Source: Escherichia phage EPFV3-03/2025 | Reading direction: 5' to 3' (one strand) | Length of the DNA stretch: 64,000 nt | Sequence record: PV435126.1 | Shown: positions 1-52,398 of the stretch, in pieces | Layout of the letters: each line of letters begins with the position of its first letter | Numbering within the stretch: position 1 is the first letter of the stretch | The notes under the pieces: generated by a model | Seen by the model: the letters and a program-made list of their open reading frames with translations, nothing else | What the model was told of the DNA's origin: nothing | Databases searched by the model: none | Translations under genes and position numbers: made by a program

Positions 1-137
1 ATCCTATCGCTTACCGCTGCGGATTTAGCGACTACATCGACAGCTTGGATATTGAGGACGATGAAGAATATCAAGAATTGCAGGCAGAGCTGGAAGAAGT
101 GAAAGAGGAGCTTTCAGAGCTGGAAGAAAACGAGTAA
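1..137 (+). CDS. 3' end of an acidic coiled-coil-like protein (partial, start outside window)
   Basis: Open frame from window start to TAA at 135-137; translation ...EDDEEYQELQAELEEVKEELSELEENE. Confidence 0.4.
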   Translation, partial: PIAYRCGFSDYIDSLDIEDDEEYQELQAELEEVKEELSELEENE

Positions 138-200
138 AATTTATTTTTAGATGGCCTTGACTCTAGGGCCATCAATAAAGTAAACTTTACACTGTTAACA
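138..200. repeat. conserved intergenic element copy 1 (T-run + ATGGCC/GGCCAT hairpin + CAATAAAGTAAA)
   Basis: Near-identical to 3848-3910; diverged copy at 472-530; each directly follows a stop codon. Confidence 0.7.
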
Positions 201-225
201 CTGAACTGATGAGGAGTTAAAACCC

Positions 226-471
226 ATGGCAGCACTAATCACAAAATATTATGCGCCCACCAACACCAAAAGCGCCCGTATCATGGTAAAAGGCTTCGGA
301 CGTAAAAAGGTTTACGCCTGGGACTATTCCCTAGATATGGAAGACAATTATACCAACGTAATGACCGATTTTATTAATGATCTGAATAAACAGATCTTAA
401 CCGACTACAAAGTGACCGATATTGCTTACATAGGTGAAGGCGGGATCTGTTTTGTAGGCATTGTGAAATAG
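226..471 (+). CDS. hypothetical early protein (81 aa)
   Basis: ORF with GGAG RBS upstream of ATG. Confidence 0.5.
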   Translation: MAALITKYYAPTNTKSARIMVKGFGRKKVYAWDYSLDMEDNYTNVMTDFINDLNKQILTDYKVTDIAYIGEGGICFVGIVK

Positions 472-530
472 TTATTTTTTCGGTGGTCCTGGTTGCAGGG
501 CCATCTATAAAGATAATTTATTAACACCAT
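472..530. repeat. conserved intergenic element, diverged copy
   Basis: TTATTTTTT then hairpin TGGTCCTG/CAGGGCCA then TATAAAG, same layout as copies at 138 and 3848. Confidence 0.5.
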
Positions 531-547
531 GAAAGGAGAAAGTACAC

Positions 548-901
548 ATGATTAGCGGGGCTAGTTTTATTATTGGCGCTATTGCTACGGCTTTAATTGT
601 AAACAAGATCCAGGATAAAAAGGAAAGAGGAAGTACCGCCCTTGCAGAATATCCATTTTGGACATTTAACGATAACGAAGATTATATTATAAAGTATAAA
701 AATAAAGAAGGCGACCAAGTAACACCGCGACCGATCCCGGCTTACAAAATGCAGGAAACACTATACCGCTTGGAGGCGGGGGGCGCAAAAATTGTTGACT
801 TTTGGGGATACGACCACACAGATCAGGAAGTTATAAAGCGCCGTATCCGGGCTATTCAGGCCAATATTGAGGTTAACAAGGGGGGAATATATGAAAATTA
901 A
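548..901 (+). CDS. hypothetical membrane-anchored protein (117 aa)
   Basis: N-terminal hydrophobic helix SFIIGAIATALIV; RBS AAAGGAGA. Confidence 0.5.
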   Translation: MISGASFIIGAIATALIVNKIQDKKERGSTALAEYPFWTFNDNEDYIIKYKNKEGDQVTPRPIPAYKMQETLYRLEAGGAKIVDFWGYDHTDQEVIKRRIRAIQANIEVNKGGIYEN

Positions 902-1088
902 TTTCGAGAAAATTGTAAAGCGCCCTCATGATTCCGAAGAGTTGCCAGAACGCCGACAGCGCAACAATAAACTGAATAGGCCAAAAAGGTTTGGGAAGAT
1001 CTGGCGGAATCATTATGATCGTAAATTGCCCGGCCTACTTTTGGAACGTGAACGACAGGCAGAACGATACCGCCATAAAGACAAATAA
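891..1088 (+). CDS. hypothetical basic protein (66 aa)
   Basis: In-frame ATG at 891 with G-rich RBS 8 nt upstream (ORF track frame from 867); terminator follows. Confidence 0.4.
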   Translation: MKINFEKIVKRPHDSEELPERRQRNNKLNRPKRFGKIWRNHYDRKLPGLLLERERQAERYRHKDK

Positions 1089-1096
1089 CAACCAAC

Positions 1097-1124
1097 GCCC
1101 CGCCATTGTGCGGGGCTTTTTATT
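1097..1124 (+). terminator. intrinsic terminator
   Basis: GCCCCGC-cattgt-GCGGGGC stem-loop followed by TTTTT. Confidence 0.7.
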
Positions 1125-1247
1125 TCTATCCTACGAATAGCGCCCCTGGTTGGCCCTGTAAGCGCCAAAAAGGCCCCCACCTATGCAATCGCCCCCCTTT
1201 AACCTGAAAGCATCGCCTAGGGCCGTTTTATAGCGTTAAAAATATCA

Positions 1248-1275
1248 TTGACATCGTCAACAGGTTAGCTATAAT
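1248..1275 (+). promoter_or_regulatory. sigma70-like promoter
   Basis: TTGACA, 16-nt spacer, TATAAT; about 30 nt upstream of ATG 1308. Confidence 0.65.
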
Positions 1276-1307
1276 AACCACATCAAAGAGAGAAAGGAGT
1301 AAACGCC

Positions 1308-1568
1308 ATGCGTAAATTAAAAAATTTTGATAAAGTTGATGTTATCCTGAATAATTTTTACTACTGCAACAACAAGGCTATTTGGTGGCGTGATAGTTCC
1401 ACCGATAAAGTCAGGGCGCGCTTTCTCCAAGGTCACTGGCAAGGCCGCCCAGTGATTAAAATCATGGGGCAATTGGTAGCGTTTAAAAATTGCCGCCGTG
1501 TTGATGACGTTGAAGAGATTTTAAACATTTTGCGCCACAATAATTTAAAAAATAGTGTTGACAAGTAA
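1308..1568 (+). CDS. hypothetical early protein (86 aa)
   Basis: ORF with AAAGGAG RBS downstream of consensus promoter. Confidence 0.55.
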   Translation: MRKLKNFDKVDVILNNFYYCNNKAIWWRDSSTDKVRARFLQGHWQGRPVIKIMGQLVAFKNCRRVDDVEEILNILRHNNLKNSVDK

Positions 1569-1585
1569 ATCTCAATAAGTATAAT
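1558..1585 (+). promoter_or_regulatory. sigma70-like promoter
   Basis: TTGACA, 16-nt spacer, TATAAT; followed by GGCGGGA/TCCCGCC 5' hairpin and RBS. Confidence 0.6.
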
Positions 1586-1642
1586 TAAACACACAGGCGG
1601 GAAAACTTCCCGCCACTAACAAAGAAAACAGGAGAAAATATC

Positions 1643-2266
1643 ATGACCACCGTTAACATTACCACAGGTTACAATTTACCTTTCGACGTGCTGACCGACG
1701 AACAAAAAGAAAAAGCCATTGAAATGGTACGCGAAAGAGAAGAACACAGCGGGGATAATTTTTTTGCAGAAAGCGTAATTGAACACTATAAAGAATATGT
1801 CTTTCCAGAGTACGGCCTTGAAGATACCGAAGTACATTGGTCCGGCTTTTGGTGTCAAGGCGATGGCGCATCGATCAGTGCTGAAAATGTAGACTTAGAA
1901 AAATTCTTGCGTAAAGTCAAGGCCCTGACCAAGTTCAGATCAATTCGTCACTTGTTCGGCACAATGCACGATGGCGAACTATCCGCCAGTATTGAACGCG
2001 ACAAGTACAGCCATTACAGCCATGAAAACACTGTAAGCGGGTACATTGATACCACATGGCTAGATCTGACCGCTAAACAAGAAAACAAAGTGGAAGACCT
2101 GGAAGAACTGATCACCGAGACGGTACGGGAGCTATCCCGCAAGGTTTACGTAGACCTGGAGCAAGCCTATCTTGAACAATTCACTACCGAAAACCTGATC
2201 GGCCTTATCGAGGCCAATGATTGGCGGTTTGATGTGGATGAATATGGCGAGATGACTTTTTCATAA
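1643..2266 (+). CDS. hypothetical protein (207 aa)
   Basis: ORF with AGGAGA RBS; no family recognised by eye. Confidence 0.6.
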   Translation: MTTVNITTGYNLPFDVLTDEQKEKAIEMVREREEHSGDNFFAESVIEHYKEYVFPEYGLEDTEVHWSGFWCQGDGASISAENVDLEKFLRKVKALTKFRSIRHLFGTMHDGELSASIERDKYSHYSHENTVSGYIDTTWLDLTAKQENKVEDLEELITETVRELSRKVYVDLEQAYLEQFTTENLIGLIEANDWRFDVDEYGEMTFS

Positions 2267-2356
2267 ATAAAGTGTTGCAATAACCTAAAAACCTGCTATA
2301 TTAAAACTCAAGGGGGCAAGACGTTTGCCCCCACACAAAACAAAGAGGAAAACATC

Positions 2357-2737
2357 ATGAAAAACACTACTAAAGCTATTGACACCGTCATGTTTAACCT
2401 GGTTACCTTTCGCGAGGATATGAAAGATCTTCCACGTGAAACAGTGTGCGATCACATTGAAAACTATCGCAAACTAATCAAAGAGTTGCCTTTAAAACGT
2501 GATCAGTATGCGGCTAATGCCATGCTTAATGCCATGATCAAAAAGATGATCCAGTGTGATTTAACTCTGGCCTATGACTATGCGGGTGGTCGTTTTGCAG
2601 TATACAATCAGCCCGTGCCAGGTATGGGCACCACCGAAGAATTGCACGCGCTCAATCTAAAACAAGACGTGTGGGATAGTATGCCTCGCGTGGTGGTGTG
2701 GGCAGAAAGCGGAAAGATTTACGGCGATAATTTTTAA
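2357..2737 (+). CDS. hypothetical protein (126 aa)
   Basis: ORF with AAAGAGGAAAACATCATG RBS preceded by GGGGGCAA/TTGCCCCC hairpin. Confidence 0.6.
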   Translation: MKNTTKAIDTVMFNLVTFREDMKDLPRETVCDHIENYRKLIKELPLKRDQYAANAMLNAMIKKMIQCDLTLAYDYAGGRFAVYNQPVPGMGTTEELHALNLKQDVWDSMPRVVVWAESGKIYGDNF

Positions 2738-2801
2738 TCAGGTAACAGGCGGCATATTTGCCGCCTTATTGTTAAACAGAACTGCAAAAGAGGTACATAG
2801 A

Positions 2802-3173
2802 ATGGAATTTATTATTTTGGCTGTATTGGTTGCCTTGTTTAACGCCTGGATCGCTGGCAAGATGGGTAGATCCGCCTTTTTATGGTTTATTATATCTATT
2901 TTCCTGGGGGTGGTTGCAACTATTGTATTGGTTATCCTTGCAATTGTTGACAAGGGGAATAATAGAAAGGGTAAAGTATTTTCAGACCTGTACGACGCTC
3001 AAACGTTTGTCAACGCCTATTATAGTGATCTTCCGGTCTCCTTGCGTTGCAGCCTTGCACAACAAGTTTTCGATGAAGCTAAAACCAGAGATCAAGCCCA
3101 TGAGATATGTTTAACTGAGGCGGATCGCCTATTTGAGAGGAATAGAAAATATGTGGGCCAACCGTTTAAATAA
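2802..3173 (+). CDS. hypothetical membrane protein (two predicted TM helices)
   Basis: Internal ATG 2802 with AAAGAGG RBS; hydrophobic segments ILAVLVALFNAWIAG and FLWFIISIFLGVVATIVLVILAIV. Confidence 0.5.
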   Translation: MEFIILAVLVALFNAWIAGKMGRSAFLWFIISIFLGVVATIVLVILAIVDKGNNRKGKVFSDLYDAQTFVNAYYSDLPVSLRCSLAQQVFDEAKTRDQAHEICLTEADRLFERNRKYVGQPFK

Positions 3174-3396
3174 TGCCATGTTAATTAATCCCTTTAGTGA
3201 AGATTTGAAGCCAGCCGCCTGGCGTGACGGATTCAATAACGAACGCTTTATTTTCAGGCCTGATCTTGAGGAATTTTATAACAATGGATCGAACAACAGC
3301 GGAGATAATTTTTCTTGTGATGTGCGTGGTGATGGTACTCCTGGGGGCCATTGTAAACCACGTCACTACTACCAGAAGGGAAGGGGGAGACGATGA
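3151..3396 (+). CDS. hypothetical protein (81 aa)
   Basis: In-frame ATG 3151 with GAGGAA RBS; overlaps end of upstream ORF. Confidence 0.4.
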   Translation: MWANRLNNAMLINPFSEDLKPAAWRDGFNNERFIFRPDLEEFYNNGSNNSGDNFSCDVRGDGTPGGHCKPRHYYQKGRGRR

Positions 3397-3512
3397 CACC
3401 CAAGGATAAGCCCCGCACCGATAAGGTGCGCCGCGTTATGGTATGGCTTGAGATTATCGCCCTTGAAATATTGCTGGGCGTAGGGATGTACTTTATCGCT
3501 GTAAGTAACTAA
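3393..3512 (+). CDS. small membrane protein (39 aa)
   Basis: ATG overlaps upstream stop (ATGA); RBS GGGGGAG; hydrophobic core VMVWLEIIALEILLGVGMYFIAV; below ORF-track size cutoff. Confidence 0.4.
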   Translation: MTPKDKPRTDKVRRVMVWLEIIALEILLGVGMYFIAVSN

Positions 3513-3648
3513 GAACGGCCCCCGATCATGGGGGCCTATCTTTAAAAAAAATTCTTCCGGGGTGTTGCAATCCGGTCCGGAATGTGGATAATAACAATCA
3601 ACGGGGAGCTAATCCCCACCACCACAAAAACCAGAAAGGAGAAACAAA

Positions 3649-3849
3649 ATGAGCAACAATATCCGCGTTATTAACTTCAAAAAAGAAGAAAAAATTGCCG
3701 TGCTGATTGACGGTCAAGAAATCTTCAAGGGCGACTATGAAGATCATCAAACGGCGATTAGTATCACTCGCGTAATTGGTTATCATAATTTCTACCCCCA
3801 AGGCGCTGAGGCAGCAGTTAAACGAATCAAAGAGATTGTAGGCCTGTAA
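3649..3849 (+). CDS. hypothetical protein (66 aa)
   Basis: ORF with AAAGGAGAAAC RBS. Confidence 0.55.
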   Translation: MSNNIRVINFKKEEKIAVLIDGQEIFKGDYEDHQTAISITRVIGYHNFYPQGAEAAVKRIKEIVGL

Positions 3850-3910
3850 AATTTATTTTTAGATGGCCTTGACTTCAGGGCCATCAATAAAGTAAATTTA
3901 AACCCTGTTA
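3848..3910. repeat. conserved intergenic element copy 2
   Basis: AATTTATTTTTAGATGGCCTTGACTTCAGGGCCATCAATAAAGTAAA, near-identical to 138-200. Confidence 0.7.
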
Positions 3911-3940
3911 AAATAATCAGTGCAAAAAGGAGCAATGATC

Positions 3941-4240
3941 ATGTTTATACCCGCCAATAATCTTTATTTCTTTGATGGTCAGATCGTAGACGGCGTGGAA
4001 GTTGAGATCACTGGGTGCCTCGGCGGTCAGGTTATGACTTTTCGGAATAATGCCTTTGATGATTCTCGTATCGTTATGAGAATGGAAGTTACGAAGCTGG
4101 ACGACAAGAAAGTACTTATTGACTATTCTGTGAAAGATCATCCAGACTACCACATGATCTATGGTGATTTGTGCATTGTTGACCGTGACAAAGTGGGCGG
4201 CATTGTGATCGCTATTGTGAACGATGTTTTCTCTGTATAG
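3941..4240 (+). CDS. hypothetical protein (99 aa)
   Basis: ATG 3941 placed 8 nt after AGGAG; ORF track start 3920 is a GTG upstream. Confidence 0.5.
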   Translation: MFIPANNLYFFDGQIVDGVEVEITGCLGGQVMTFRNNAFDDSRIVMRMEVTKLDDKKVLIDYSVKDHPDYHMIYGDLCIVDRDKVGGIVIAIVNDVFSV

Positions 4241-4464
4241 TTCCGGCAAATGATGCAAAATAAGGCCCCTAGCAGGGCCTGCAGCGATATAATCACATAA
4301 AGGCTATGCGGTTGCATGGCCTTTATTATTTTAGCGTTACAGCGGCCCCCAAGGCGCTTAAAAATTCTTTAAAGAAGTACTTGCATCAAGCCCTACAATA
4401 TGGATAATAGGACGTGTCAGGGGGGCGGCCCCAATCATTAACCGGATAGATAGGAGTTAAAACC

Positions 4465-4749
4465 ATGGCTATTGTTACCGCTGGCGATGTAGTAGAAATG
4501 GAAGCAAAATACTTAAAAGCGGGTATGCATATCTTACGGAATGATCAAGAGTTATTATTAACGATGGTCGACTATAATCCCGGCCAGGATTATCCAAGCA
4601 TCGACTACTTTTTTGAGTATGTTGATGAAGAATTAAAAGAGGATGAGGCCTATTGCGGTGAGTTCTGCAATTTCTTTTGTCCTGATGAGGTTGTAAAGGT
4701 TATCTATCAACCTGGCGTAGCTTTCCCGCTGCACGCTATCAATAAATAA
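4465..4749 (+). CDS. hypothetical acidic protein (94 aa)
   Basis: ORF with TAGGAG RBS; promoter-like TTGCAT...GATAAT upstream. Confidence 0.55.
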   Translation: MAIVTAGDVVEMEAKYLKAGMHILRNDQELLLTMVDYNPGQDYPSIDYFFEYVDEELKEDEAYCGEFCNFFCPDEVVKVIYQPGVAFPLHAINK

Positions 4750-4814
4750 ACCTGGCGGGGCCGAAAAGGCCCCTACAGCATAAAATCATAAAAAATAAAG
4801 AGAGGCAAATCATC

Positions 4815-5048
4815 ATGATGGAACAAATTAAACGCGCTGAGGCTATTAATGGCAATGTGATCTATTTTGTCAGCAAAAACGAAAAAGGCGTACCATATGC
4901 GGCGGTAATAGTACAGCCTGACGGAGATTATTGGTTTACTGTATACGGATCTTATTCTTTTGGGCGTCCAGTGCATGATAAAATTTTGAAAGTAGCGAAC
5001 CCCACCGGGAAGAATATCACGGCAGAAAAATTTTTTGAAAAGTGTTGA
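4815..5048 (+). CDS. hypothetical protein (77 aa)
   Basis: ORF with AGAGAGG RBS. Confidence 0.5.
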   Translation: MMEQIKRAEAINGNVIYFVSKNEKGVPYAAVIVQPDGDYWFTVYGSYSFGRPVHDKILKVANPTGKNITAEKFFEKC

Positions 5049-5123
5049 CATGACCATATAAAACTGTAGTATATAAATCAAAGGGGGCAACAAGCCCCAC
5101 CAACCACAAAGAGGATAAAAATC

Positions 5124-5303
5124 ATGGCTATTATTGCAAAAACTGAGATCGTAGGCTTAGATTCTATTCTCCTCGCATATGAGGAAGCTATAGAAATGTA
5201 TGTGGTTTCCTATGGTGAGTATATCCGTGAATATAAATCTATTGATCTGGCTTTTGAATGTTATATTCGCCAGGTAAATAAAGCATATGATGATTATCGT
5301 TAA
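5124..5303 (+). CDS. hypothetical small protein (59 aa)
   Basis: ORF just under the track cutoff; TTGACA promoter-like site at about 5045, GGGGC hairpin, RBS AAAGAGGATAAAAATCATG. Confidence 0.45.
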   Translation: MAIIAKTEIVGLDSILLAYEEAIEMYVVSYGEYIREYKSIDLAFECYIRQVNKAYDDYR

Positions 5304-5394
5304 AATAGTTTGGCAACAAACAACCATCTAACAAAGCATAATACATAAGGTGGTAGAATGATCCTCCACCCGGAACAAAGAAGAGGTAAACACC

Positions 5395-5640
5395 ATGAAA
5401 AGCAATAAAGGTTATAACGGTTACAAAAACAAAACTCATTGGAATGTAAGCCTTTGGATTAATAACGATGAGTCATTGTACCGGTTGGCCCAAAGCTTTA
5501 TTAACGCTAATGCTAATCGTAATGATGCGGCGCGGGATATGATGCTTTTTCTGGAGCTAACCGGACAAGATAAGACCCCGGACGGCTTCAAGTACAGCAC
5601 TACGGCGATCCGCGCCGCTATGGTTGGAATGAAACACTAA
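5395..5640 (+). CDS. hypothetical protein (81 aa)
   Basis: ORF with AGAAGAGGTAAACACCATG RBS. Confidence 0.55.
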   Translation: MKSNKGYNGYKNKTHWNVSLWINNDESLYRLAQSFINANANRNDAARDMMLFLELTGQDKTPDGFKYSTTAIRAAMVGMKH

Positions 5641-5710
5641 TAGCCGCCTTACCCTGGGGCCGTGGCAGCGGCCCTATGAATAAGGTTACTAACAGAAGAG
5701 AATAAACACC

Positions 5711-5815
5711 ATGAAACAAAAATTAATTGATGCTGTGATCCTGGTTATTGCCCTGGGTATTGGCCTGATTGCAACCATGGCTAATGTGATCTTGTCTTCC
5801 AACGGTATCGGGTGA
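5711..5815 (+). CDS. tiny membrane protein (34 aa)
   Basis: RBS AGAAGAGAATAAACACCATG; single hydrophobic helix AVILVIALGIGLIATMANVIL. Confidence 0.35.
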   Translation: MKQKLIDAVILVIALGIGLIATMANVILSSNGIG

Positions 5816-5824
5816 GGTTGACAA

Positions 5825-6040
5825 ATGATCACTAACAAAACAGGCAAAACAGAATTTTTACGCAACTTACAGATCGGCAAGCCTGAGATCTGGTACTGCA
5901 CTAAAACACCGCGTGACGAAATGAAAGACTTCACCGCCACGCTGAAGCGGGTAAAGATATCCATTACGCAGAAAAAAGCCTTGATAGTGGTGGAAGGTGA
6001 GATCCCTCAAGCCGTTGTTATAGTTGAGCGTACAGCATAG
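5825..6040 (+). CDS. hypothetical protein (71 aa)
   Basis: ORF with GAGG RBS. Confidence 0.5.
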   Translation: MITNKTGKTEFLRNLQIGKPEIWYCTKTPRDEMKDFTATLKRVKISITQKKALIVVEGEIPQAVVIVERTA

Positions 6041-6129
6041 TTTAATCTATACCGTACGCCCCATTAACTAACAAAGCATAAACAGGCGGCGGTAACCGCC
6101 TTAAACGCAGCAGAAAGAGGATAGACAAC

Positions 6130-6414
6130 ATGAAAAAGATGATCGCAGTGGTTGCCCTGGTTATTGGACTTAATGCGCCTGTAATGGCTAAAGAGCTGGC
6201 AAAAGAGGTAGATCTAACTGATATCCATGCCGTCAATCAAATCGGTGTTACTTATCGGTTATGCCTTGCCGCAAAAACTTTCCAGGACGGCACAACAGAG
6301 TACTACGGATTCGAAGGCATCCGGTGCGGTGAGCTTGCTCGCGACCTTAAGGAAGATCCAGACCTGGAGGATCTGCCGATAACCGTAAACGGGAAAACTT
6401 ACGTGAACCGTTAA
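6130..6414 (+). CDS. hypothetical secreted/periplasmic protein (94 aa)
   Basis: Signal-peptide-like N-terminus MKKMIAVVALVIGLNAPVMA; RBS AAAGAGGATAGACAACATG. Confidence 0.55.
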   Translation: MKKMIAVVALVIGLNAPVMAKELAKEVDLTDIHAVNQIGVTYRLCLAAKTFQDGTTEYYGFEGIRCGELARDLKEDPDLEDLPITVNGKTYVNR

Positions 6415-6416
6415 CC

Positions 6417-6551
6417 ATGAGAAAGATAATTATTACCATGGGGATCGTGGCGGCAATGTTGGCGATCTTTCCCTTTATGGTTAGGTATGTGCTGATCGGT
6501 GTTGTCCTGGTAGTCAGCGATCTGGTGTTATATATTAACTCATTGTTTTAG
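6417..6551 (+). CDS. tiny membrane protein (44 aa)
   Basis: ATG 2 nt after upstream stop; hydrophobic throughout; below track cutoff. Confidence 0.35.
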   Translation: MRKIIITMGIVAAMLAIFPFMVRYVLIGVVLVVSDLVLYINSLF

Positions 6552-6559
6552 GTGCGATA

Positions 6560-6751
6560 ATGACAGCAGAAGAAGTTAAAAAAGTACTGGCGGTACTGCG
6601 TTATCATAATCATTGCAAGGTGAAGAATGATCCTGATTATCTTGATTCATCCCTTGAAGAGGATACACTACAAGCCATAAGCAACATGCAAGAATTGCTT
6701 AAGCGTATGACAGAGAAAAACCGACCGGACTATATAGGCGAAAAAGTATAA
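6560..6751 (+). CDS. hypothetical protein (63 aa)
   Basis: ORF with GGTG RBS, followed by terminator. Confidence 0.5.
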   Translation: MTAEEVKKVLAVLRYHNHCKVKNDPDYLDSSLEEDTLQAISNMQELLKRMTEKNRPDYIGEKV

Positions 6752-6761
6752 TCTTTATAAA

Positions 6762-6796
6762 CCATAAAACAGGGCTTGTAATGGTCCTGTTTTTTG
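6762..6796 (+). terminator. intrinsic terminator
   Basis: ACAGGGC...TCCTGT stem-loop followed by TTTTTTGTT. Confidence 0.6.
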
Positions 6797-6880
6797 TTAT
6801 ACTTGTTTCACGGGTGGCACCTGGCGACGGGGGGAGACAATCACCGGTGGTGCCTGTTATATAAAAAACTATAAAAACCG

Positions 6881-6909
6881 TTGACATCTGCCAGGTGGTG
6901 GGGTAACAT
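6881..6909 (+). promoter_or_regulatory. sigma70-like promoter
   Basis: TTGACA, 17-nt spacer, TAACAT. Confidence 0.5.
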
Positions 6910-6963
6910 TTATCTTGAAGGGGCAAAAGTGCCCACACAACAACCAGAAGAGAGGAAAACGCC

Positions 6964-7236
6964 GTGTCAAGCTGGATTAACCAAGAAGTCGAATCACGTT
7001 TTAATGCTATTTGGGATCTCATCGAAAAAGAGGACGGAACATCAAGCCCCTACCTTAATAATCTTGAATTCCATTTTGTGGAAGCGATGAACGCAGAACA
7101 TGATCACGAAGGCGGCGCGGATGAGTTCGCTAAAGGGTATGGCTTCACCAATGCCAACGAAATGATCGAGGCGGTTGTACTCCAGGCTGAGGAAGATTAT
7201 CAATTAAAAACACTTGAATTTTGCCGCCGTAAGTAA
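6964..7236 (+). CDS. hypothetical acidic protein (90 aa)
   Basis: GTG start with GAGAGGAAAAC RBS. Confidence 0.5.
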   Translation: MSSWINQEVESRFNAIWDLIEKEDGTSSPYLNNLEFHFVEAMNAEHDHEGGADEFAKGYGFTNANEMIEAVVLQAEEDYQLKTLEFCRRK

Positions 7237-7297
7237 TAAGATAATGACACGGGCCAAAAGGCCCACCAAACCAGAACCCCATAAAGAGGTAAACATC

Positions 7298-7561
7298 ATG
7301 AAACGTCTTGATCAGCTCAAACTAGTTCAGTACATGGCCTACAAAGTTCTTGAAGTCCAAAAAGGTAGCAAAAAAGAGGTTTGCGAGAAAGCATATAAGA
7401 TCTTTACCCGTAAAAAAGATGATTGGATGTTACGCCAGACCAAAAAGGCTGACATCTTGGGGTACCTGGAAGAAGAGATCCGGCTTGAAGAGCAAGAAGA
7501 GATCCGCCGCAGTGAGGCAGATTATCAGGCAGCTTGGGAAAGCTGGATGAGCAACAAATAA
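7298..7561 (+). CDS. hypothetical protein (87 aa)
   Basis: Internal ATG 7298 with AAAGAGGTAAACATCATG RBS. Confidence 0.5.
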   Translation: MKRLDQLKLVQYMAYKVLEVQKGSKKEVCEKAYKIFTRKKDDWMLRQTKKADILGYLEEEIRLEEQEEIRRSEADYQAAWESWMSNK

Positions 7562-7628
7562 TACAACAAGTTACGGTCAGGGGGGGCAATAAAGCCCCTT
7601 GATCACATAAAAATTATGCTATCCCTGG

Positions 7629-7657
7629 TTGACAGGGATCGGCAGTTTTGCTATATT
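7629..7657 (+). promoter_or_regulatory. sigma70-like promoter
   Basis: TTGACA, 17-nt spacer, TATATT. Confidence 0.6.
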
Positions 7658-7706
7658 CTTTTTTGAAGGGAAGTTGTAAGAAAATTAACTAAGAGGTAAA
7701 AACACC

Positions 7707-8126
7707 ATGAACATTAAATCTAATAATCCGGCATATAGCTTTGATAACGCTTTTTGTCACGGTCCGGCGGCGAAAGGATTCGAAATCGATGGTAAACTAA
7801 TTATTGTCAATGTTGACGGGGAAGAGGTTGCAGTATATCCGGTGGCAGACGTTAAAAGCCGTCTACAATGCCGCATGGATGTTACCGCCTATCAGCTTGA
7901 TCCGGTCCGCATAGTTGCCCTGGTCCTGGAAGAAGAAATTAAAGCAATGCACCACAGCAACAAGTTTATTGGTGACGCTCAAGATAATATGAAGGTATGC
8001 CGCCATAAAGTTAATGAAGTGCTTAAAGAATATGGCTTTAAAGATCTGATGATCAAACGTGAGGAAAAATTCCGCTACCGTAACGACCTGGCAAATCGGA
8101 TTTTTGAAATATACGAATCATTATAA
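7707..8126 (+). CDS. hypothetical protein (139 aa)
   Basis: ORF with TAAGAGGTAAAAACACCATG RBS; last gene of + strand block. Confidence 0.6.
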   Translation: MNIKSNNPAYSFDNAFCHGPAAKGFEIDGKLIIVNVDGEEVAVYPVADVKSRLQCRMDVTAYQLDPVRIVALVLEEEIKAMHHSNKFIGDAQDNMKVCRHKVNEVLKEYGFKDLMIKREEKFRYRNDLANRIFEIYESL

Positions 8127-8145
8127 TTTTTTAACTGAATTATCA

Positions 8146-8170
8146 AGGGGCTTAGGCCCCTTTCTTTTTG
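8146..8170 (+). terminator. intrinsic terminator
   Basis: AGGGGC-ttag-GCCCCT stem-loop followed by TTCTTTTTG. Confidence 0.7.
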
Positions 8171-8779
8171 TCTGCTCTTCCCCATACCATAAACGGCCCT
8201 ACCTGACAAGTGGAATAATTGACGAGCCATCAATCCCGCACACTGTACAAATATACATGTAAAATAGCTATTGCATAACCTTTCATTGTGTGGTAGCGGT
8301 GCTATTTTTACCCGTTTTCTCTCCCAAAATTGCACGTAATGCAGCTATTGCACAAAATTTAACCTGATGCACATCTTCAGTATACTGTCAACAATTAAAA
8401 ATCTTTATAAGTCATACACTTACACAAACCAAAAAGCGTGTCCTACGTGAAAAATCGGGTGTAACTATAGCCGACAGATCTCAGAATCCACGTACAATCA
8501 CCATTCTATAGCCTGCAAAGTATTTATTCCAACCACAGAATAACGGAATAGTCAATACTTGTATAAAATAATTATTCGTGTAAACTGCATAACATAAATC
8601 TTCTCATGTGTCAACATTTTTCGTAAACAGTCCGAAATTGTCACGATAGGTTACTATAATCAGAGAAATCTTTAGTCGTCTAATGTTTACTGTACATAAC
8701 TATACTGACTGGAATCATTAGATGACTAAGAGAAAGATAAGAAATAATTAACAATGTAATTGTTTTATCTGCAACAATA

Positions 8780-9040
8780 AGGCAACTATGCAAACGAATG
8801 GCATGGCGCGACGGAGTCGCGACATAATATAAAAGCAGTAACCATCACCCCCGTGATAGTTTGTCTGCAATCTATTAATCAGATCATAGTTGCCTTGTAT
8901 TTAGTTAATCATGACATAACAAGCAGGGCAACTATAGATCTTCTAATAGTTGCCCTGCTTTTATATTATGTCATATATTATTAACTTGTCAATTGTCACC
9001 TTGCTAATTGTTTTCATGCAAACGAATGTCATGGCTTATC
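8780..9040. repeat. cluster of inverted and direct repeats (GCAACTAT/ATAGTTGC units; GCAAACGAATGNCATGGC x2)
   Basis: 16-bp inverted repeat AAGCAGGGCAACTATA...AATAGTTGCCCTGCTT at 8921-8960; further copies at about 8782 and 8886. Confidence 0.7.
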
Positions 9041-9869
9041 ATCTCTGTGTAAACTGTCAATGTGTAAACAGTCTACGCAGGAACAATCTATACGTGAACA
9101 GTGAAACATGAAATAATAACAGTCGTTATTGTGTCGAAAGTGTCGTATTGTGTGACATTGTGTCAGACAAGTTTTTCTCCTCTTTGTCAAGTGCTGCATG
9201 GAAAATTTACAATCTGGTATGGTAGCATTTTTGCGGCCCCGTTTACATGCATGAGTGTATGTATAATCCTTGTTGTGTGGGCGTTTAGACGTCTGGACGG
9301 TCAGAAGTCCGCAGGTTAATATCTAATCTATTGGTCGCTAACTATATCCACCACAAATAATAAGAAATACAATTGTTATATTCGTAAACAGTAACCCATG
9401 TTATCAATCCCTGTATGTATCGCCAGTGGTGCGCATAATGGGTATTATGTTAAATTGCCCGTAATGATAACGATTCTCACAATGATAAGTATTCTCATTC
9501 ATCCACACAAAATAGCTTGCAAATGTTGTGCCACTGTGTGAACGGCCTCGCCTATTAATTTGCCTCACTGCCCCGATATTTGAGAATTGTTATAAGAATG
9601 AGAAGTATTCCCATTCCGTCCGCCTGGCAGCACTCCAGTCGCTACCGGCTCCTGACAGGGTAGCACTCCTGTAGGACAAGCACAAAATCTGGGCATAACT
9701 GGACCTGTTCAGATATTTCTGGCTGACTCTTCAGGTCTGTGTGGGAAAAGCCAACCTCTCCGGCGGGGCAGGGGGGGTCTGCATGGCAGATTTCACCTGG
9801 AGCGAAACCCTTAAGGGTAAGATGGGGTGGTATTACAGGAAAAATTGCAGGTCAATTAAAAAATTTACG

Positions 9870-10230
9870 TGGTGTATGAAGCCCTCTTCAGGCAGGGCGT
9901 GTATTATGGGATGAAACCCTCTTCAGGTGATGATATTTGTGGGTGTGATATTTGCTGGAAAGCCAGATATGACGGGGCTCCCGGCGGGGATGGGGTAGTA
10001 CAGGCAGGGAAAATGTGGGGATGTGGTGTGGTAAATTGATCAGGCAGGTAGGATATGGAATATGTTACAAGTATGTTAAATATGGAGGTAGGATATTTGT
10101 AAGATTTGTGTGTAAAATCAAATACTTATGTGGTGTTGTGGTATTTTCTATAAATAATTCAAGTTTAATAGGTGATATTTGTCTCCATCTACTTTGTGTG
10201 GTAAACAGATTCTAATTGAATTGGTTTACA
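9870..10230. repeat. GT-rich short direct repeat region
   Basis: Repeated GAWRCCCTCTTCAGG (x2), TGATATTTG (x3-4), GGTAGGATAT (x2); strand-asymmetric G+T composition. Confidence 0.6.
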
Positions 10231-10691
10231 AGTGTATATAAAGTATACAAATTAAAGATATAAGAAACCCCCCTCCCCCCTTCGGCTACCATTCACCTTT
10301 TCCTCTGACTGGTACTTAAACACTTATTCAGACTCTTCAGGTTATCACCCATATATCATATGGCAGTGACTGGTGTCCTCCGGCCCCTCTTTCGTCACCC
10401 GTCCGCTTCGCCATGCTAATGCCATAGCTAACTGTTCGGTTGTTCACCCTGTTCACTCAGGTGTATCTCCATACCCCTTCAAACCGAAGAGAACAGAAAA
10501 CCCGAATTACTCGGTAAAAGAAAAGAGAAGAACTTAATTTTATCAGGATAGGCAAGAATGTCAAGGCATGACTGCTCACTAAACAAGCAAACAGTCATGT
10601 GTGGGAGGTAAGTGATTGTGGTGGTAGGAAATTTAGTTGAAAGATGTGTTATAGGTGCTTCCAGCACTTTAGCCTGGCAGCTAATTGTGTG

Positions 10692-10907
10692 TCAGTCCAG
10701 CGGTTCATCCTCTACTTCACTGAAATCAATGTTCATGGTCTCTTCCCAACCATCGATCTCAGCACAAGAGTGGAGTTCTTTAGGGTTTACTCCCAAAGCC
10801 TCAGCAACAGAGTCTATATTTAACACCTCTGGCAGGTATGATTCATCGAATTCAAGGTAAATCAGGCCACGAGTGTTGTCAGCTCCACCAAATATTTCTA
10901 TCTTCAT
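10692..10907 (-). CDS. hypothetical acidic protein (71 aa)
   Basis: ORF, MKIEIF start; last gene of - strand block. Confidence 0.5.
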   Translation of the reverse strand: MKIEIFGGADNTRGLIYLEFDESYLPEVLNIDSVAEALGVNPKELHSCAEIDGWEETMNIDFSEVEDEPLD

Positions 10908-11027
10908 AAAATCTCCTCTGGGAATGAGAGTGTGAACAGGATTATACGTTCCAATGCACTGGAATTTATATACGTTTGCCTCTTCAGGCCATGCTTTAGC
11001 ATGATAAACTTGTGTGGGCTCGGTGCT

Positions 11028-11363
11028 TCATAGTCTGCCACCTCTGAACTCTTCGTTCTCAGGCATGATAGAGAACCAGATGGCTATGATGTCCTCCCAC
11101 GTCAGGTCATCAGCCTCAGGGTCCACCTGGGACGGAGATAGAGAATCCTCAGAATTGAAGTTTTTCTCTGCGGTCGCTTCTTCAGATGTCTCTTTAGGTG
11201 CATGTGTGTTGGTCATGTTCCACCCGTGAGTATTCCGGCAACAGCCGCTATGGACGTAATGATCATCAGGATCACCACCAAAACCTCGGACAATGTTTTC
11301 ATTGCGTATTCCATATTCTTCAAACGATGTGAGGATACTATCACAGGAGCTGTAATGTGTCAA
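11028..11363 (-). CDS. hypothetical acidic protein
   Basis: ORF; true start may be internal. Confidence 0.4.
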   Translation of the reverse strand: MTHYSSCDSILTSFEEYGIRNENIVRGFGGDPDDHYVHSGCCRNTHGWNMTNTHAPKETSEEATAEKNFNSEDSLSPSQVDPEADDLTWEDIIAIWFSIMPENEEFRGGRL

Positions 11364-11575
11364 CAGAAACGCCGCGAGGGTTGGTTAAAATCCGAGCGTA
11401 TGGTGATTTGGGTCAAAACGGACGTGCGTTCTCGCTACGCTCGAAATAGAGAGTTGTTTGTAAGCAGCTCTTAAACGCTCTGTAATGATATTAACTACCT
11501 AAGGTATGGAATCGTGCACCAGATAAAGAAAAGGACGCCACAGAGCGTCCTAGGTGCCTTAAATTTGATATTTTG

Positions 11576-11875
11576 CTATACCCATGAGGGCTTGTCTAGG
11601 TTGGAGTAGCTGAAGGGGGTCAAAAGGTGACTGTCAAAATCTTTCAAACTGTCCAAGTCTTTTTCCTCGTCCTGACACCATCTGTGCCTGCATTTATTGT
11701 TGTAGTGCATGGAATGCATAGCGTTCTGCAACTTAACAGGTACAAGTGATTCAGGAGTAGATAGAATTGTTGGGTATGCCAGGACTATCTCAAACAATGG
11801 AAACACATCGAAACTGAAGTCTATTTCTGCTGAGGTTGCTGGCATATAGGAGTATTTAGCTGTCGTTGTAGACAT
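11576..11875 (-). CDS. hypothetical protein (99 aa)
   Basis: ATG at 11875 with GAGGTGG RBS, 8 nt after upstream stop. Confidence 0.5.
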   Translation of the reverse strand: MSTTTAKYSYMPATSAEIDFSFDVFPLFEIVLAYPTILSTPESLVPVKLQNAMHSMHYNNKCRHRWCQDEEKDLDSLKDFDSHLLTPFSYSNLDKPSWV

Positions 11876-11883
11876 AATCCACC

Positions 11884-12210
11884 TCACACAGGCTTGATAA
11901 TACCTTCACCGAATAACTCTTCATATTTAATCTTATCAGGATCCCACTCCTGGATAATTTCGAAGACAATATCCAGCCCAGGGATAATCACTTCTCCGGT
12001 ATCAAGTCTGGCAAGAACAAAACCGGAAGGTTGAATGGTTTCCCAGTTGCGACGATTAGAATAGATAACTTCGAAAATATCGCCAACCGCAATCTGTTGA
12101 TCAAGGTGTTCAAGATTCTCTTTCATATAAACGCAGCGTATTTTCCGTGCAGGCCACAGGCCCCCTGCATCACGTTTATTTAGCTCTTTTACAGTAATCG
12201 GCATTAGCAT
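11884..12210 (-). CDS. hypothetical protein (108 aa)
   Basis: ORF in coupled array. Confidence 0.5.
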   Translation of the reverse strand: MLMPITVKELNKRDAGGLWPARKIRCVYMKENLEHLDQQIAVGDIFEVIYSNRRNWETIQPSGFVLARLDTGEVIIPGLDIVFEIIQEWDPDKIKYEELFGEGIIKPV

Positions 12211-49857: not shown

Positions 49858-49945
49858 TGTCCGTAATACGGACACTACTGCCCGTCACGCGGACACATCT
49901 GCCCGTAATACGGACACTAACTGTCCGCAATACGGACACATAAAG
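49858..49945. repeat. four tandem iterons of about 21-22 bp, each with palindrome CCGTAATACGG + ACAC
   Basis: TCCGTAATACGGACACTACTG / CCCGTCACGCGGACACATCTG / CCCGTAATACGGACACTAACTG / TCCGCAATACGGACACATAAAG. Confidence 0.8.
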
Positions 49946-52319: not shown

Positions 52320-52394
52320 GCCCTGTTAGCTTAGTGGATAAAGCAGCGGCCTTCTAAGCCGTTGACACTGGTTCGAGTCCAGTACGGGGTGCCA
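52320..52394 (+). tRNA. tRNA-Arg (anticodon TCT)
   Basis: Manual cloverleaf: 7-bp acceptor GCCCTGT/ACGGGGT, 4-bp D-stem, anticodon loop CTTCTAA, T-loop TTCGAGT, CCA encoded. Confidence 0.75.
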
Positions 52395-52398
52395 AATT

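What the first reader, a model, noticed from the sequence alone, without database searches (positions are those of the whole stretch)
1248..8170. Stereotyped early-gene unit: promoter, GC-rich 5' hairpin, extended RBS
Across the + strand block most genes are preceded by a near-consensus sigma70 promoter (1248, 1558, 6881, 7629), a short GC hairpin without a U-tract (for example GGCGGGAAAACTTCCCGCC at about 1597 and GGGGGCAAGACGTTTGCCCCC at about 2313), and an extended ribosome-binding region with consensus AAAGAGGWAAACAYCATG (2357, 5124, 5395, 5711, 6130, 7298, 7707). The hairpins lie inside the predicted 5' UTRs and may stabilise transcripts or act as processing sites.
Basis: seen in the sequence. 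Interest (0 to 1): 0.4.

Follow-up and report, generated by a model that had tools for sequence, protein, structure and literature searches.

The report
Mobile early-gene expression cassettes of rV5-like phage
The block is the variable early-gene region of an rV5-like coliphage: small genes of unknown function preceded by repeated promoter / GC-hairpin / ribosome-site units, a variant of the 'PeSL' cassettes of T4-like phages, and gene gains and losses break inside these units.

Summary
The window is a Vequintavirus (rV5-like, 93-95% nt identity). There are 24 GC hairpins in 1-8200 against 4.9±2.2 expected, and the extended RBS consensus matches 5 times against 0.28 expected.

"Most genes" is overstated. 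Nine of 23 genes have a well-placed sigma70-like promoter. Only five units are complete (promoters at 1558, 2275, 3565, 5045, 6881). Promoters 1248 and 7629 have no downstream hairpin.

In the complete units the stem starts 9-11 nt after the -10 hexamer. That leaves 2-5 unpaired nt after the predicted start, followed by an A/C-rich unstructured leader and a strong SD. The same geometry recurs in rV5, phi92 and phAPEC8, on the sense strand only.

Stems are conserved among relatives (8% variable columns) while loops (38%) and flanks (22%) vary.

Indels between relatives break inside the repeated RBS or hairpin sequences. Whole cassettes are shared with phi92-like phages.

Best reading: self-contained, mobile early expression cassettes, close to the PeSLs of T4-like RB49/phi1. 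Here the hairpin is transcribed and most likely acts as a 5'-terminal mRNA stabiliser and RBS insulator; this function is inferred, not shown. Novelty: new variant of a known kind. Interest is moderate.

The parts
226..8126 (+). Block of 23 small + strand genes (34-207 aa). Starts: 226, 548, 891, 1308, 1643, 2357, 2802, 3151, 3393, 3649, 3941, 4465, 4815, 5124, 5395, 5711, 5825, 6130, 6417, 6560, 6964 (GTG), 7298, 7707.
   Evidence: ORFs and SD sites. Orthologous to rV5 ORF164-192. All 20 proteins tested fall in PHROG families of unknown function.
1558..1645 (+). Complete unit 1. TTGACA-N16-TATAAT (1558-1585), 10 nt, hairpin GGCGGGAAAACTTCCCGCC (1596-1614), 28-nt A/C-rich leader with AGGAG, ATG at 1643.
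   Evidence: Fold z = -5.4.
2275..2359 (+). Complete unit 2. TTGCAA-N16-TATATT with TG (2275-2302), 9 nt, hairpin 2312-2332, leader ACACAAAACAAAGAGGAAAACATC, ATG at 2357.
   Evidence: Fold z = -3.9.
3565..3651 (+). Complete unit 3. TTGCAA-N16-GATAAT (3565-3592), 10 nt, hairpin GGGGAGCTAATCCCC (3603-3617), CA-rich leader, ATG at 3649.
   Evidence: Fold z = -2.5.
5045..5126 (+). Complete unit 4. TTGACA-N16-TAGTAT (5045-5072, overlapping the stop codon of gene 4815), 11 nt, hairpin GGGGCAACAAGCCCC (5084-5098), leader, ATG at 5124.
   Evidence: Fold z = -2.5. The orthologous hairpin is annotated as a 'terminator' in phage HdK5.
6881..6966 (+). Complete unit 5. TTGACA-N17-TAACAT (6881-6909), 11 nt, hairpin GGGCAAAAGTGCCC (6921-6934), leader, GTG at 6964.
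   Evidence: The fold signal is weak (z = -1.0). The promoter is annotated as P168 in rV5.
1248..1310 (+). Consensus promoter (1248-1275) followed by an extended RBS, with no hairpin. ATG at 1308.
   Evidence: Annotated as P186 in rV5.
7621..7709 (+). Promoter TTGACA-N17-TATATT (7629-7657). Its -35 hexamer overlaps the loop and 3' arm of hairpin ATCCCTGGTTGACAGGGAT (7621-7639). Extended RBS, ATG at 7707.
   Evidence: A compensatory C-G to T-A change occurs in Murica and rV5. The same arrangement is seen in phAPEC8.
134..187 (+). 54-nt composite element: an AT-rich UP-like tract, hairpin ATGGCC...GGCCAT (151-172) enclosing the -35 TTGACT, and -10 TAAACT. Further copies lie at 3846-3899 (94% identical) and 466-519 (67% identical, degenerate promoter).
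   Evidence: (D1). Murica annotates these elements as terminators.
2747..2766 (+). Intercistronic GC hairpin with no sigma70 promoter upstream, in the same class as 4263-4280, 4757-4773, 5657-5674, 6084-6101, 7251-7264 and 7583-7598. The imperfect hairpin at 5349-5370 is similar, but follows a TTGGCA / CATAAT pair with a non-functional 21-nt spacer. Each lies 5-25 nt after a stop codon and about 25-45 nt before the next start.
   Evidence: Stems are conserved and loops variable.
1097..1124 (+). Canonical intrinsic terminator (GC stem followed by a U-tract). Others lie at 3517-3545, 6766-6800 and 8145-8170.
   Evidence: Annotated as terminators in Murica and HdK5.
5380..5400 (+). Extended RBS/start repeat GAAGAGGTAAACACCATGAAA. 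Paralogous copies lie at 2342-2362, 7283-7303 and 5694-5714. It acts as a recombination junction for cassette gain and loss.
   Evidence: (D5). Junctions E1 and E3.

Best explanation
Positions 1-8170 are the hyperplastic early region of an rV5-like myovirus. It is built from self-contained expression cassettes for small genes of unknown function.

A full cassette has these parts, in order:
- an AT-rich UP-like tract and a sigma70 promoter read by host RNA polymerase;
- a start site predicted 8 nt after the -10 hexamer;
- 2-5 unpaired nt;
- a 5-8 bp GC stem-loop with no U-tract;
- a 24-31 nt A/C-rich, U-poor, unstructured leader carrying a strong SD (AAGAGG or AGGAG) 7-9 nt before the ATG.

Proposed mechanism, step by step.
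(1) Host RNAP initiates at the cassette promoter. Inferred from consensus matches.
(2) The nascent RNA folds the 5'-terminal hairpin. Pairing is shown by sequence and by conservation of the stems.
(3) The hairpin shields the 5' end from RppH and from 5'-end-dependent RNase E attack, and keeps the leader and SD single-stranded. The result would be stable, efficiently translated early mRNAs. Inferred from established E. coli mRNA-decay rules.
(4) Promoter-less copies between cistrons would do the same for processed or read-through transcripts and would also block 3' exonucleases. Inferred.
(5) Because the promoter, hairpin, leader and RBS sequences are repeated along the genome and shared with related phages, they act as short homology patches where cassettes are deleted, inserted and exchanged. 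Shown by the junction sequences.
For: Identity and context.
- The block is 93-95% identical to Vequintavirus genomes and orthologous to rV5 ORF164-192.
- All tested ORFs belong to PHROG families of unknown function.

Unit geometry.
- The gap from the -10 hexamer to the stem is 9-14 nt, on the sense strand only. Counts are 5 units in the window, 7 in the rV5 early region, 10 in phi92 and 5-6 in phAPEC8, against 0-1 on the antisense strands.
- Y-R at positions 7/8 after the -10 in all five window units. The tract upstream of the -35 has >=75% AT in 7 of 10 promoters, against 8.7% of random windows.
- Predicted leaders are unpaired apart from the hairpin. The leaders of the five complete units total A 80, C 31, G 20, T 6; folds are.

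Selection on pairing.
- In non-terminator hairpins, stem columns vary in 17/204, loops in 33/88 and flanks in 177/800 (Fisher 9e-9 and 2e-6). One compensatory C-G to T-A change was found. Changes to G·U outnumber changes to A·C, 6 to 3.
- Next to perfect stems across 82 distinct units, G·U against A·C is 8:2 (outer) and 10:2 (loop-closing).
- Orthologous genes carry hairpins of unrelated sequence in phi92 and in the window, for example upstream of the gene 2357 / gp227 pair.

Cassette mobility.
- Gene 5395 is present or absent between two TAAACACCATGAAA RBS repeats.
- ECP32 lacks 4815-5822, with a junction between two RBS/start regions.
- An extra gene in rV5 and Mangalyan at 7274-7301 is flanked by a duplicated 28-nt leader plus RBS.
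- HdK5 lacks 7601-8145 through a crossover inside two GGGGC...GCCCC hairpins, giving the chimera GGGGCTTAAAGCCCC.
- Mangalyan and JEP1 carry a complete phi92 gp243-type cassette (promoter, GCGGCAATAGTGCCGC hairpin, RBS and ORF).

Published counterpart: PeSLs (PMC2839356, PMC4122927).
Against: - No TSS, half-life or termination data exist for this phage group. The start sites, and therefore the '5'-terminal' status of the hairpins, are predictions.
- The strand-specific signal is weak: G·U against A·C is 6:3 among orthologues. The family-level counts are not phylogenetically independent.
- The sense-versus-antisense MFE bias (59 of 80) is confounded by flank composition. An earlier version of the test was not significant.
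- Two strong promoters (1248, 7629) do without a 5' hairpin.
- Some hairpins are thermodynamically marginal (6921, 6084).
- In RB49, a PeSL stem-loop behaved as a strong terminator in a reporter assay, so a termination or attenuation role cannot be dismissed.
- Viable indels have to fall between ORFs in any case, so breakpoint enrichment in intergenic DNA is partly a selection artefact.
Confidence: 0.6

Rival explanations
1. The hairpins are transcription terminators or attenuators, as proposed for PeSL stem-loops. They would insulate each cassette from read-through originating at upstream promoters.
For: - A PeSL stem-loop from RB49/phi1 reduced lacZ expression as much as the rrnB T1 terminator (PMC2839356).
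- Every hairpin lies downstream of the preceding stop codon.
- The depositors of HdK5 and Murica annotated several of them as terminators, including the orthologue of 5084 and the 134/3846 elements.
Against: - The non-terminator GC hairpins have no U-tract. Six have A/C-rich 3' flanks (ACTAAC, ACACAA, ACCACC and similar), and the others start with TA.
- In the five complete units the hairpin is 9-11 nt downstream of the unit's own -10. A terminator there would abort the cassette's own transcripts.
- In RB49 the stem-loop sits between the -35 and -10 or over the -10, and so is absent from the cassette's own RNA.
- Four canonical terminators with U-tracts already punctuate the block (1097, 3517, 6766, 8145).
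Confidence: 0.17
2. The palindromes act at the DNA level. They could be operators for a dimeric phage repressor that shuts off early promoters (a roadblock at about +3 to +25), or cruciform or hairpin targets of a recombination function that moves cassettes.
For: - They are perfect inverted repeats placed where classical operators lie, immediately downstream of the start site.
- One deletion junction lies inside two hairpins (HdK5).
- The 18-nt hairpin at 6084-6101 is exactly reverse-complemented in 8 of the 9 relatives aligned at that site, which is a DNA-level event.
- The PeSL authors speculated that a protein might recognise GGGG...CCCC.
Against: - Half-site sequence, arm length (5-8 bp) and loop length (3-6 nt) differ from unit to unit: GGCGGGAA, GGGGGCAA, GGGGA, GGGGC, GGGCA.
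- Loops are the most variable positions (38%), while pairing is what is conserved.
- G·U is tolerated more often than A·C.
- Most junctions lie in the RBS or leader repeats, not in the hairpins, which fits ordinary homology-driven recombination.
Confidence: 0.13
3. The hairpins are endoribonuclease processing sites, RNase III-type as in T7 early mRNA, which cut polycistronic early transcripts into stable monocistronic units.
For: They are intercistronic and repeated before most cistrons.
Against: - Stems are 5-8 bp, rarely 10 bp with wobbles. That is far shorter than the roughly two helical turns RNase III needs (established knowledge).
- No Rfam family matches the region.
- In five units the hairpin already sits at a predicted primary 5' end.
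Confidence: 0.05

Closest known systems
PeSL (promoter-early stem-loop) mobile regulatory cassettes of T4-like phages RB49/phi1, PST and nt-1 (Arbiol et al. 2010, PMC2839356; Comeau et al. 2014, PMC4122927)
   Same: - A strong sigma70-like promoter with an AT-rich tract upstream.
- A GC-rich (GGGG...CCCC) stem-loop.
- An SD and start codon at the 3' end.
- Many copies, concentrated in a hyperplastic region upstream of ORFans.
- Stem-loop position relative to the promoter is variable; here some overlap the -35.
- Indels and replacements between close relatives break in the repeated elements, including inside a stem-loop.
- rV5 genes in this region have RB49 homologues.
   Different: - The phage lineage differs: Vequintavirinae and Stephanstirmvirinae, not Straboviridae.
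- The dominant position of the stem is 9-14 nt downstream of the -10, so it is transcribed from the cassette's own promoter. In RB49 it lies mostly between the -35 and -10 or over the -10.
- The hairpin sequences are unrelated.
- Many junctions use the leader and RBS repeat rather than the promoter or stem-loop.
- Terminator activity and mini-circles were not tested here.
5'-terminal stem-loop mRNA stabilisers of E. coli (ompA 5' UTR type; Emory, Bouvet and Belasco 1992, cited from my own knowledge)
   Same: A stable hairpin within a few unpaired nucleotides of the 5' end, followed by a single-stranded leader and SD. The predicted overhang here is 2-5 nt.
   Different: The 5' ends here are predicted, not mapped, and no half-life data exist. 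Here the element is a short, repeated, interchangeable module rather than a gene-specific UTR.
Phage 'morons' (Hendrix et al. 2000; discussed in PMC2839356)
   Same: Single accessory genes that carry their own promoter and are added to or removed from phage genomes as units.
   Different: Morons are not bounded by conserved repeated linker sequences and usually carry a true terminator. Here the repeated regulatory sequence is itself the recombination substrate.
Intrinsic (rho-independent) terminators
   Same: A GC-rich stem-loop in intergenic DNA. Four real examples lie in the block.
   Different: The unit hairpins have no U-tract and sit downstream of their own promoter.

Membership tests
PeSL cassette | Sigma70-like early promoter with near-consensus -35 and -10 hexamers | tested here: met
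   Scores of 12/12 at 1248 and 1558, 11/12 at 7629, 10/12 at 5045 and 6881, and 9/12 at 157, 2275, 3565 and 3869.
PeSL cassette | AT-rich tract upstream of the -35 | tested here: met
   The -59..-36 tract has >=75% AT in 7 of 10 promoters, against 8.7% of random 24-nt windows.
PeSL cassette | Stable stem-loop, often polyG...polyC | tested here: met
   24 GC hairpins against 4.9 expected. Fold z-scores down to -5.4. Stems conserved among relatives.
PeSL cassette | Stem-loop embedded in or overlapping the promoter. In RB49 it is mostly between the -35 and -10 or over the -10; five positional subclasses are described. | tested here: inconclusive
   Four elements overlap the -35 (151-172, 482-505, 3863-3884, 7621-7639). 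The main class starts 9-11 nt after the -10, downstream of the predicted start, whereas the nearest RB49 subclass is 'just before the site of initiation'.
PeSL cassette | SD and start codon at the 3' end of the element | tested here: met
PeSL cassette | Clustered in a hyperplastic region, next to ORFans | tested here: met
   All 20 tested proteins are PHROGs of unknown function. Gene content differs among 9 close relatives. Outside this block the window's GC hairpins are mostly canonical terminators or lie in the tRNA cluster, and none was seen as part of a promoter-hairpin unit.
PeSL cassette | Indel or replacement junctions between close relatives lie in the repeated elements | tested here: met
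   Of 10 events, four have both ends in RBS/start regions (three of them at recognisable leader/RBS repeats), one has both ends in hairpins, three others have an end at a hairpin, terminator or promoter, and three ends lie in coding sequence.
PeSL cassette | Stem-loop terminates or attenuates transcription; promoter is very strong in reporter assays | not testable with these tools
   Needs reporter or in vitro transcription assays.
PeSL cassette | Formation of encapsidated cassette mini-circles | not testable with these tools
   Needs inverse PCR on phage DNA.
PeSL cassette | Described host lineage is T4-like phages; sequence relatedness to RB49 PeSLs | tested here: not met
   The taxonomy is Vequintavirinae. 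RB49 PeSL hairpins (GGGGATC...GATCCCC, GGGAGTA...TACTCCC) are unrelated in sequence and position.
5'-terminal stem-loop mRNA stabiliser | Hairpin no more than about 2-4 unpaired nt from the 5' end of the transcript | tested here: inconclusive
   The predicted overhang is 2-5 nt, based on the -10 position and the Y-R start motif. No experimental TSS is available.
5'-terminal stem-loop mRNA stabiliser | Removing the hairpin shortens mRNA half-life in an RNase E / RppH-dependent way | not testable with these tools
   Requires an experiment.
Intrinsic terminator | GC stem immediately followed by a U-tract | tested here: not met
   Not met for the 12 unit or intercistronic GC hairpins, whose flanks are A/C-rich or start with TA. 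Met only for 1097, 3517, 6766 and 8145.
RNase III processing site | About 20 bp or more of double-stranded RNA | tested here: not met
   Stems are 5-8 bp, and at most 10 bp with wobble pairs.
Any curated RNA family (Rfam 15) | Covariance-model match at or above the gathering score | tested here: not met
   Only two sub-threshold chance hits in 1-12000.

The most novel reading that the evidence does not exclude
The transcribed 5' hairpin could be a functional 'self' tag and mobility signal, not only a passive stabiliser.

One version concerns RNA decay. The hairpin would exempt phage early mRNAs from a phage-induced boost of host RNase E. The rV5 paper reports an Srd homologue, gp11 (PMC3606486). 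That T4 Srd stimulates RNase E is from my own knowledge.

The other version concerns recombination. The DNA palindromes would be preferred, possibly protein-assisted, crossover sites that make these cassettes an integron-like exchange system shared across unrelated phage families.

Hints for the second version:
- A crossover inside two hairpins (HdK5).
- An exact hairpin inversion at 6084.
- phi92-type cassettes present in Vequintavirus genomes.
- Gene 5395 occurring in jumbo phages.
- Analogous promoter-hairpin-SD units in Gordonia phage Pupper.
Probability: 0.12. Interest if true: 0.7.

Novelty: new variant of a known kind. Interest (0 to 1): 0.4.

Why it matters
If correct, composite promoter/stem-loop cassettes are not peculiar to T4-like phages. 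They would be a recurrent way in which large lytic phages package, express and trade small accessory genes; many such genes elsewhere are anti-defence or host-takeover factors.

The rV5/phi92 version moves the hairpin into the transcript. It may therefore couple cassette mobility with mRNA stabilisation and RBS insulation.

Practical consequences:
- Annotation improves, because public records label these hairpins inconsistently as 'terminators' or as 'PHIRE promoters'.
- Early transcription units can be predicted from sequence.
- The units are compact natural parts (promoter, 5' hairpin, leader and RBS) for engineering therapeutic Vequintavirus phages.
- The RBS and hairpin repeats mark the places where genes can be inserted or deleted with the least disruption.

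Tried and rejected
- (stem/loop substitution test) used three mis-registered hairpins (148-170, 484-501, 3862-3884). The coordinates were corrected and the test repeated. Only one search should be used.
- Sense-versus-antisense MFE as a test for RNA-level function gave no signal over all hairpins (30 against 18, p = 0.31). It was significant for 82 promoter-linked units (59 of 80). I do not rely on it, because the ±4-nt flanks differ systematically in composition between the strands.
- A protein-seeded search of IMG/VR with the 207-aa gene found only 2 close relatives and 6 very distant ones, too few for covariation analysis.
- The IMG/VR pattern scan for promoter + GGCGGGAA returned mostly single chance hits.
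- Rfam gave nothing.
- tblastn with gene 6964 did not list the RB49 homologue mentioned in the rV5 record among the rows shown. A direct comparison of orthologous PeSL and unit sequences was therefore not possible. I compared the first 50 kb of RB49 instead.
- Literature searches found no TSS or RNA-seq study of rV5- or phi92-like phages and no paper linking PeSLs to them.
- The candidate hairpin at 4420-4432, after a weak promoter at 4380, was rejected (z = +1.2).
- The idea that the hairpins terminate antisense transcription was considered, because their reverse complements are followed by T/G-rich sequence. I set it aside because the T/G-rich tails are simply the complement of the A-rich -10 and start regions, and no genes lie on the minus strand.

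Full report
**Source and context.** The 7-kb query (1200-8200) matches 293 phage records. Ninety-nine cover at least 80% of it at about 92-95% identity, and all of those listed are Vequintavirus-type (rV5-like) genomes such as SophiaRose, AlexBoehm and rV5. In rV5 the block corresponds to ORF164-192, part of the proposed transcription unit '10-1-238-164'. I curated 23 + strand genes of 34-207 aa. Twenty were scanned, and each belongs to a PHROG family of unknown function. Beyond 8170 lies the 'non-coding' region described for rV5. After it come minus-strand genes whose hairpins are ordinary U-tract terminators.

Both quoted hairpins are at the stated positions.
- GC hairpins are about five-fold enriched: 24 against 4.9±2.2 expected. 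Sixteen are intergenic.
- The ungapped RBS consensus with up to 3 mismatches occurs 5 times in 64 kb, all in this block on the + strand, against 0.28 expected. AAGAGG-N6-9-ATG occurs 6 times against 0.29 expected.
- A blind repeat search recovers the regulatory sequences as the main repeat families. D1 is a 54-nt UP/hairpin/promoter element present three times. D4 is the hairpin 3' arm plus CA leader plus SD. D5 is the extended RBS plus ATGAAA. D11 is the -10 plus the hairpin 5' arm.
- 'Most genes' is wrong. Nine of 23 genes have a promoter of at least 9/12.
- Only five units are complete, with promoters at 1558, 2275, 3565, 5045 and 6881.
- Promoters 1248 and 7629 have no downstream hairpin.
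- Seven hairpins have no promoter upstream.
- Four hairpins overlap or enclose a -35 region.
- Four further hairpins are canonical terminators.
- Fold z-scores range from -5.4 (1596) to about -1 (6921). A candidate at 4420 fails.

**Anatomy of the complete unit.**
- The perfect stem begins 9-11 nt after the -10 hexamer.
- Positions 7 and 8 after the -10 are C-A (four units) or T-G (one unit), the preferred pyrimidine-purine start motif. The predicted RNA therefore has 2-5 unpaired nt before the stem.
- The 24-31 nt between stem and start codon total A 80, C 31, G 20, T 6 across the five complete units. The Gs are essentially confined to the SD, and the leader is predicted unpaired.
- The tract upstream of the -35 has at least 75% AT in 7 of 10 promoters.

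**Conservation beyond this phage.**
- The same geometry, with a -10 to stem gap of 9-14 nt, recurs on the sense strand only. Counts are 7 units in the rV5 early region, 10 in phi92 genes 225-248 and 5-6 at the left end of phAPEC8, against 0-1 on the antisense strands.
- In phi92 and phAPEC8 (Stephanstirmvirinae) the unit is highly stereotyped: TTGACA-N16/17-TAnnnT-(g/t)tATCACATAGG-[GCGGCAatagTGCCGC or GGCGGGAAAtggTTTCCCGCC]-about 10 nt-AAGAGAGA-ATG.
- The phAPEC8 record labels 20-nt 'PHIRE promoter' features immediately upstream of four of these genes, which coincide with or adjoin the hairpins. HdK5 and Murica label some of the window's hairpins 'terminator'. Public annotation is therefore inconsistent.
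- Orthologous genes can carry hairpins of unrelated sequence. Window gene 2357 has GGGGGCAA..., while phi92 gp227 has GGCGGGAAA.... Gene 4815 has a promoter-less GGGGCC hairpin here but a full promoter plus GGCGGGAAG unit in phi92.

**Selection on the hairpins.** This analysis uses 11 relatives and corrected coordinates. The earlier run had three mis-registered hairpins and should be ignored.
- Non-terminator stems vary in 17/204 columns (8.3%), loops in 33/88 (37.5%) and 25-nt flanks in 177/800 (22.1%). Fisher tests give 9e-9 and 2e-6.
- Distinct stem changes: 6 to G·U (sense strand), 3 to A·C, 2 disruptive, and 1 compensatory (C-G to T-A in 7621-7639).
- Across 82 distinct promoter-linked units from all fetched loci, the pair flanking a perfect stem is G·U against A·C in a ratio of 8:2 (outer) and 10:2 (loop-closing). 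These copies are not independent.
- Pairing is clearly selected. The evidence that the selected molecule is sense-strand RNA is suggestive, not decisive.

**Cassette turnover.** BLAST blocks between the window and nine relatives define ten indel or replacement events.
- E1: gene 5395 and its downstream hairpin are absent from rV5 and CM1. The junction lies within AGAAGAGG(T/A)AAACA..ATGAAA, the RBS/start repeat shared by genes 5395 and 5711.
- E2: ECP32 lacks 4815-5822. The RBS of 4815 is fused to the start of 5825.
- E3: rV5, Mangalyan and ECP32 have an extra gene at 7274-7301, flanked by a duplicated 28-nt CA leader plus RBS.
- E6: HdK5 lacks promoter 7629 and gene 7707. The crossover lies inside hairpin 7583-7598 and terminator hairpin 8145-8162 and leaves the chimera GGGGCTTAAAGCCCC.
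- E7 and E10: Mangalyan and JEP1 carry a complete phi92 gp243-type cassette, including its promoter, the GCGGCAATAGTGCCGC hairpin and its RBS.
- E5: in AlexBoehm, Murica and CM1, terminator 6766 is replaced by a gene plus a promoter whose -35 lies within GGGG-TTGACT...-CCCC.
- Three breakpoints lie in coding sequence.
- Selection for intact ORFs would by itself push junctions into intergenic DNA. The microhomologies at repeated unit sequences indicate the recombination substrate.
- Gene 5395 also occurs at 82-90% nt identity in Phapecoctavirus, Klebsiella and about 350-kb jumbo phages. In the jumbo-phage and Klebsiella hits the homology stops at the ORF borders.

**Comparison with PeSLs.** Arbiol et al. 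(PMC2839356) and Comeau et al. (PMC4122927) define PeSLs by the following features:
- a strong sigma70 promoter with an AT-rich upstream tract;
- a GGGG...CCCC stem-loop in one of five positions relative to the promoter;
- an SD and start codon;
- clustering before ORFans in hyperplastic regions;
- reporter evidence for promoter and terminator activity;
- recombination between copies, including inside the loop, which produces indels and mini-circles.

Every feature that can be tested from sequence is met here, except lineage and the dominant stem position. I scanned 50 kb of RB49. Its stem-loops lie between the -35 and -10 (for example TTGACAggggatcggtgatccccTATACT) or over the -10, so the cassette's own RNA lacks the full hairpin. 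In the rV5/phi92 group the whole hairpin is transcribed. That difference matters for function. A U-less hairpin downstream of its own promoter is poorly suited to termination. It is well placed to act as a 5'-terminal stabiliser, following the ompA-type rule that the hairpin must lie within a few nt of the 5' end (my own knowledge), and as an insulator that keeps the SD accessible. No paper in the searched library connects PeSLs with rV5- or phi92-like phages or maps their transcripts.

**Verdict.** The feature is real. It is best described as PeSL-like mobile early expression cassettes with a transcribed 5' hairpin. The cassette architecture and its role at indel junctions are shown by sequence comparison. 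Promoter use, the 5'-terminal location of the hairpin and the stabiliser function are inferred. Rivals are an attenuator role (0.17), a DNA-level operator or recombination site (0.13) and an RNase processing site (0.05). Novelty is 'new variant of a known kind', and interest is moderate at 0.4.

Noticed in passing
window 6084-6101: The 18-nt hairpin AGGCGGCGGTAACCGCCT is exactly reverse-complemented (AGGCGGTTACCGCCGCCT) in 8 of the 9 relatives aligned there. Only Mangalyan shares the window's orientation. This is a hairpin 'flip', a DNA-level inversion or template-switch event.
   Followed up: partly
L127:6600-11300 (= Gordonia phage Pupper, 131.6-137.7 kb); also L068, L039, L053, L059, L105, L120, L122: Analogous units occur 3-5 times per locus in actinobacteriophage-like contigs: TTGACA-N17-TATAGT/TATTGT, 10-13 nt, GGCGGGAAnGGCCCGCC, SD, ATG. 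The L127 stretch also has weak (60-80% identity) blastn matches in about 300 Mycobacterium phage records. They were found only because the scan was seeded with GGCGGGAA, so ascertainment is biased.
   Followed up: partly
window 5395-5640: This 81-aa gene (PHROG 871) is present at about 82-90% nt identity in Phapecoctavirus, Klebsiella phage ZCKP1 and about 350-kb jumbo phages (Ecwhy_1, Sharanji, slurp01). In the jumbo-phage and Klebsiella hits the homology is confined to the ORF, which suggests recent cross-family transfer of a single gene.
   Followed up: no
window 5310-5342: Promoter polymorphism. The window has TTGGCA with a 21-nt spacer before CATAAT and is probably inactive. Relatives have TTGACA, and AlexBoehm also has a 4-nt deletion that gives a 17-nt spacer. 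The motif CTAACAAAGCATAA precedes both hairpin 5349-5370 and hairpin 6084-6101.
   Followed up: partly
window 8170-11000: This is the 'non-coding' region of rV5. It is rich in short direct and inverted repeats. Examples are the palindrome AAGCAGGGCAACTAT/ATAGTTGCCCTGCTT at 8921-8960 and the 18-nt inverted repeat 8821-8838/8955-8972. A near-consensus minus-strand promoter (TTGACA-N16-CATAAT with TG, 8992-8965) points into the early block. It may be an origin or a regulatory hub.
   Followed up: no
window 52320-53132: A cluster of seven tRNA genes. One is a 99-nt tRNA-like gene at 52789-52887 that ARAGORN calls with a four-base anticodon (atcc).
   Followed up: no
window 49858-49930: A run of short repeats and palindromes built on CCGTAATACGGACAC (for example TGTCCGTAATACGGACA and CGGACACTAACTGTCCG), lying between + strand genes.
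   Followed up: no
window 1089-1247: This 220-nt gap upstream of promoter 1248 contains a degenerate copy (1155-1180) of the hairpin family at 4751-4776 and 6913-6938 (D3). Several relatives carry an extra TTGACA-containing 24-nt insertion just upstream of the promoter. It looks like the remnant of a lost cassette.
   Followed up: no
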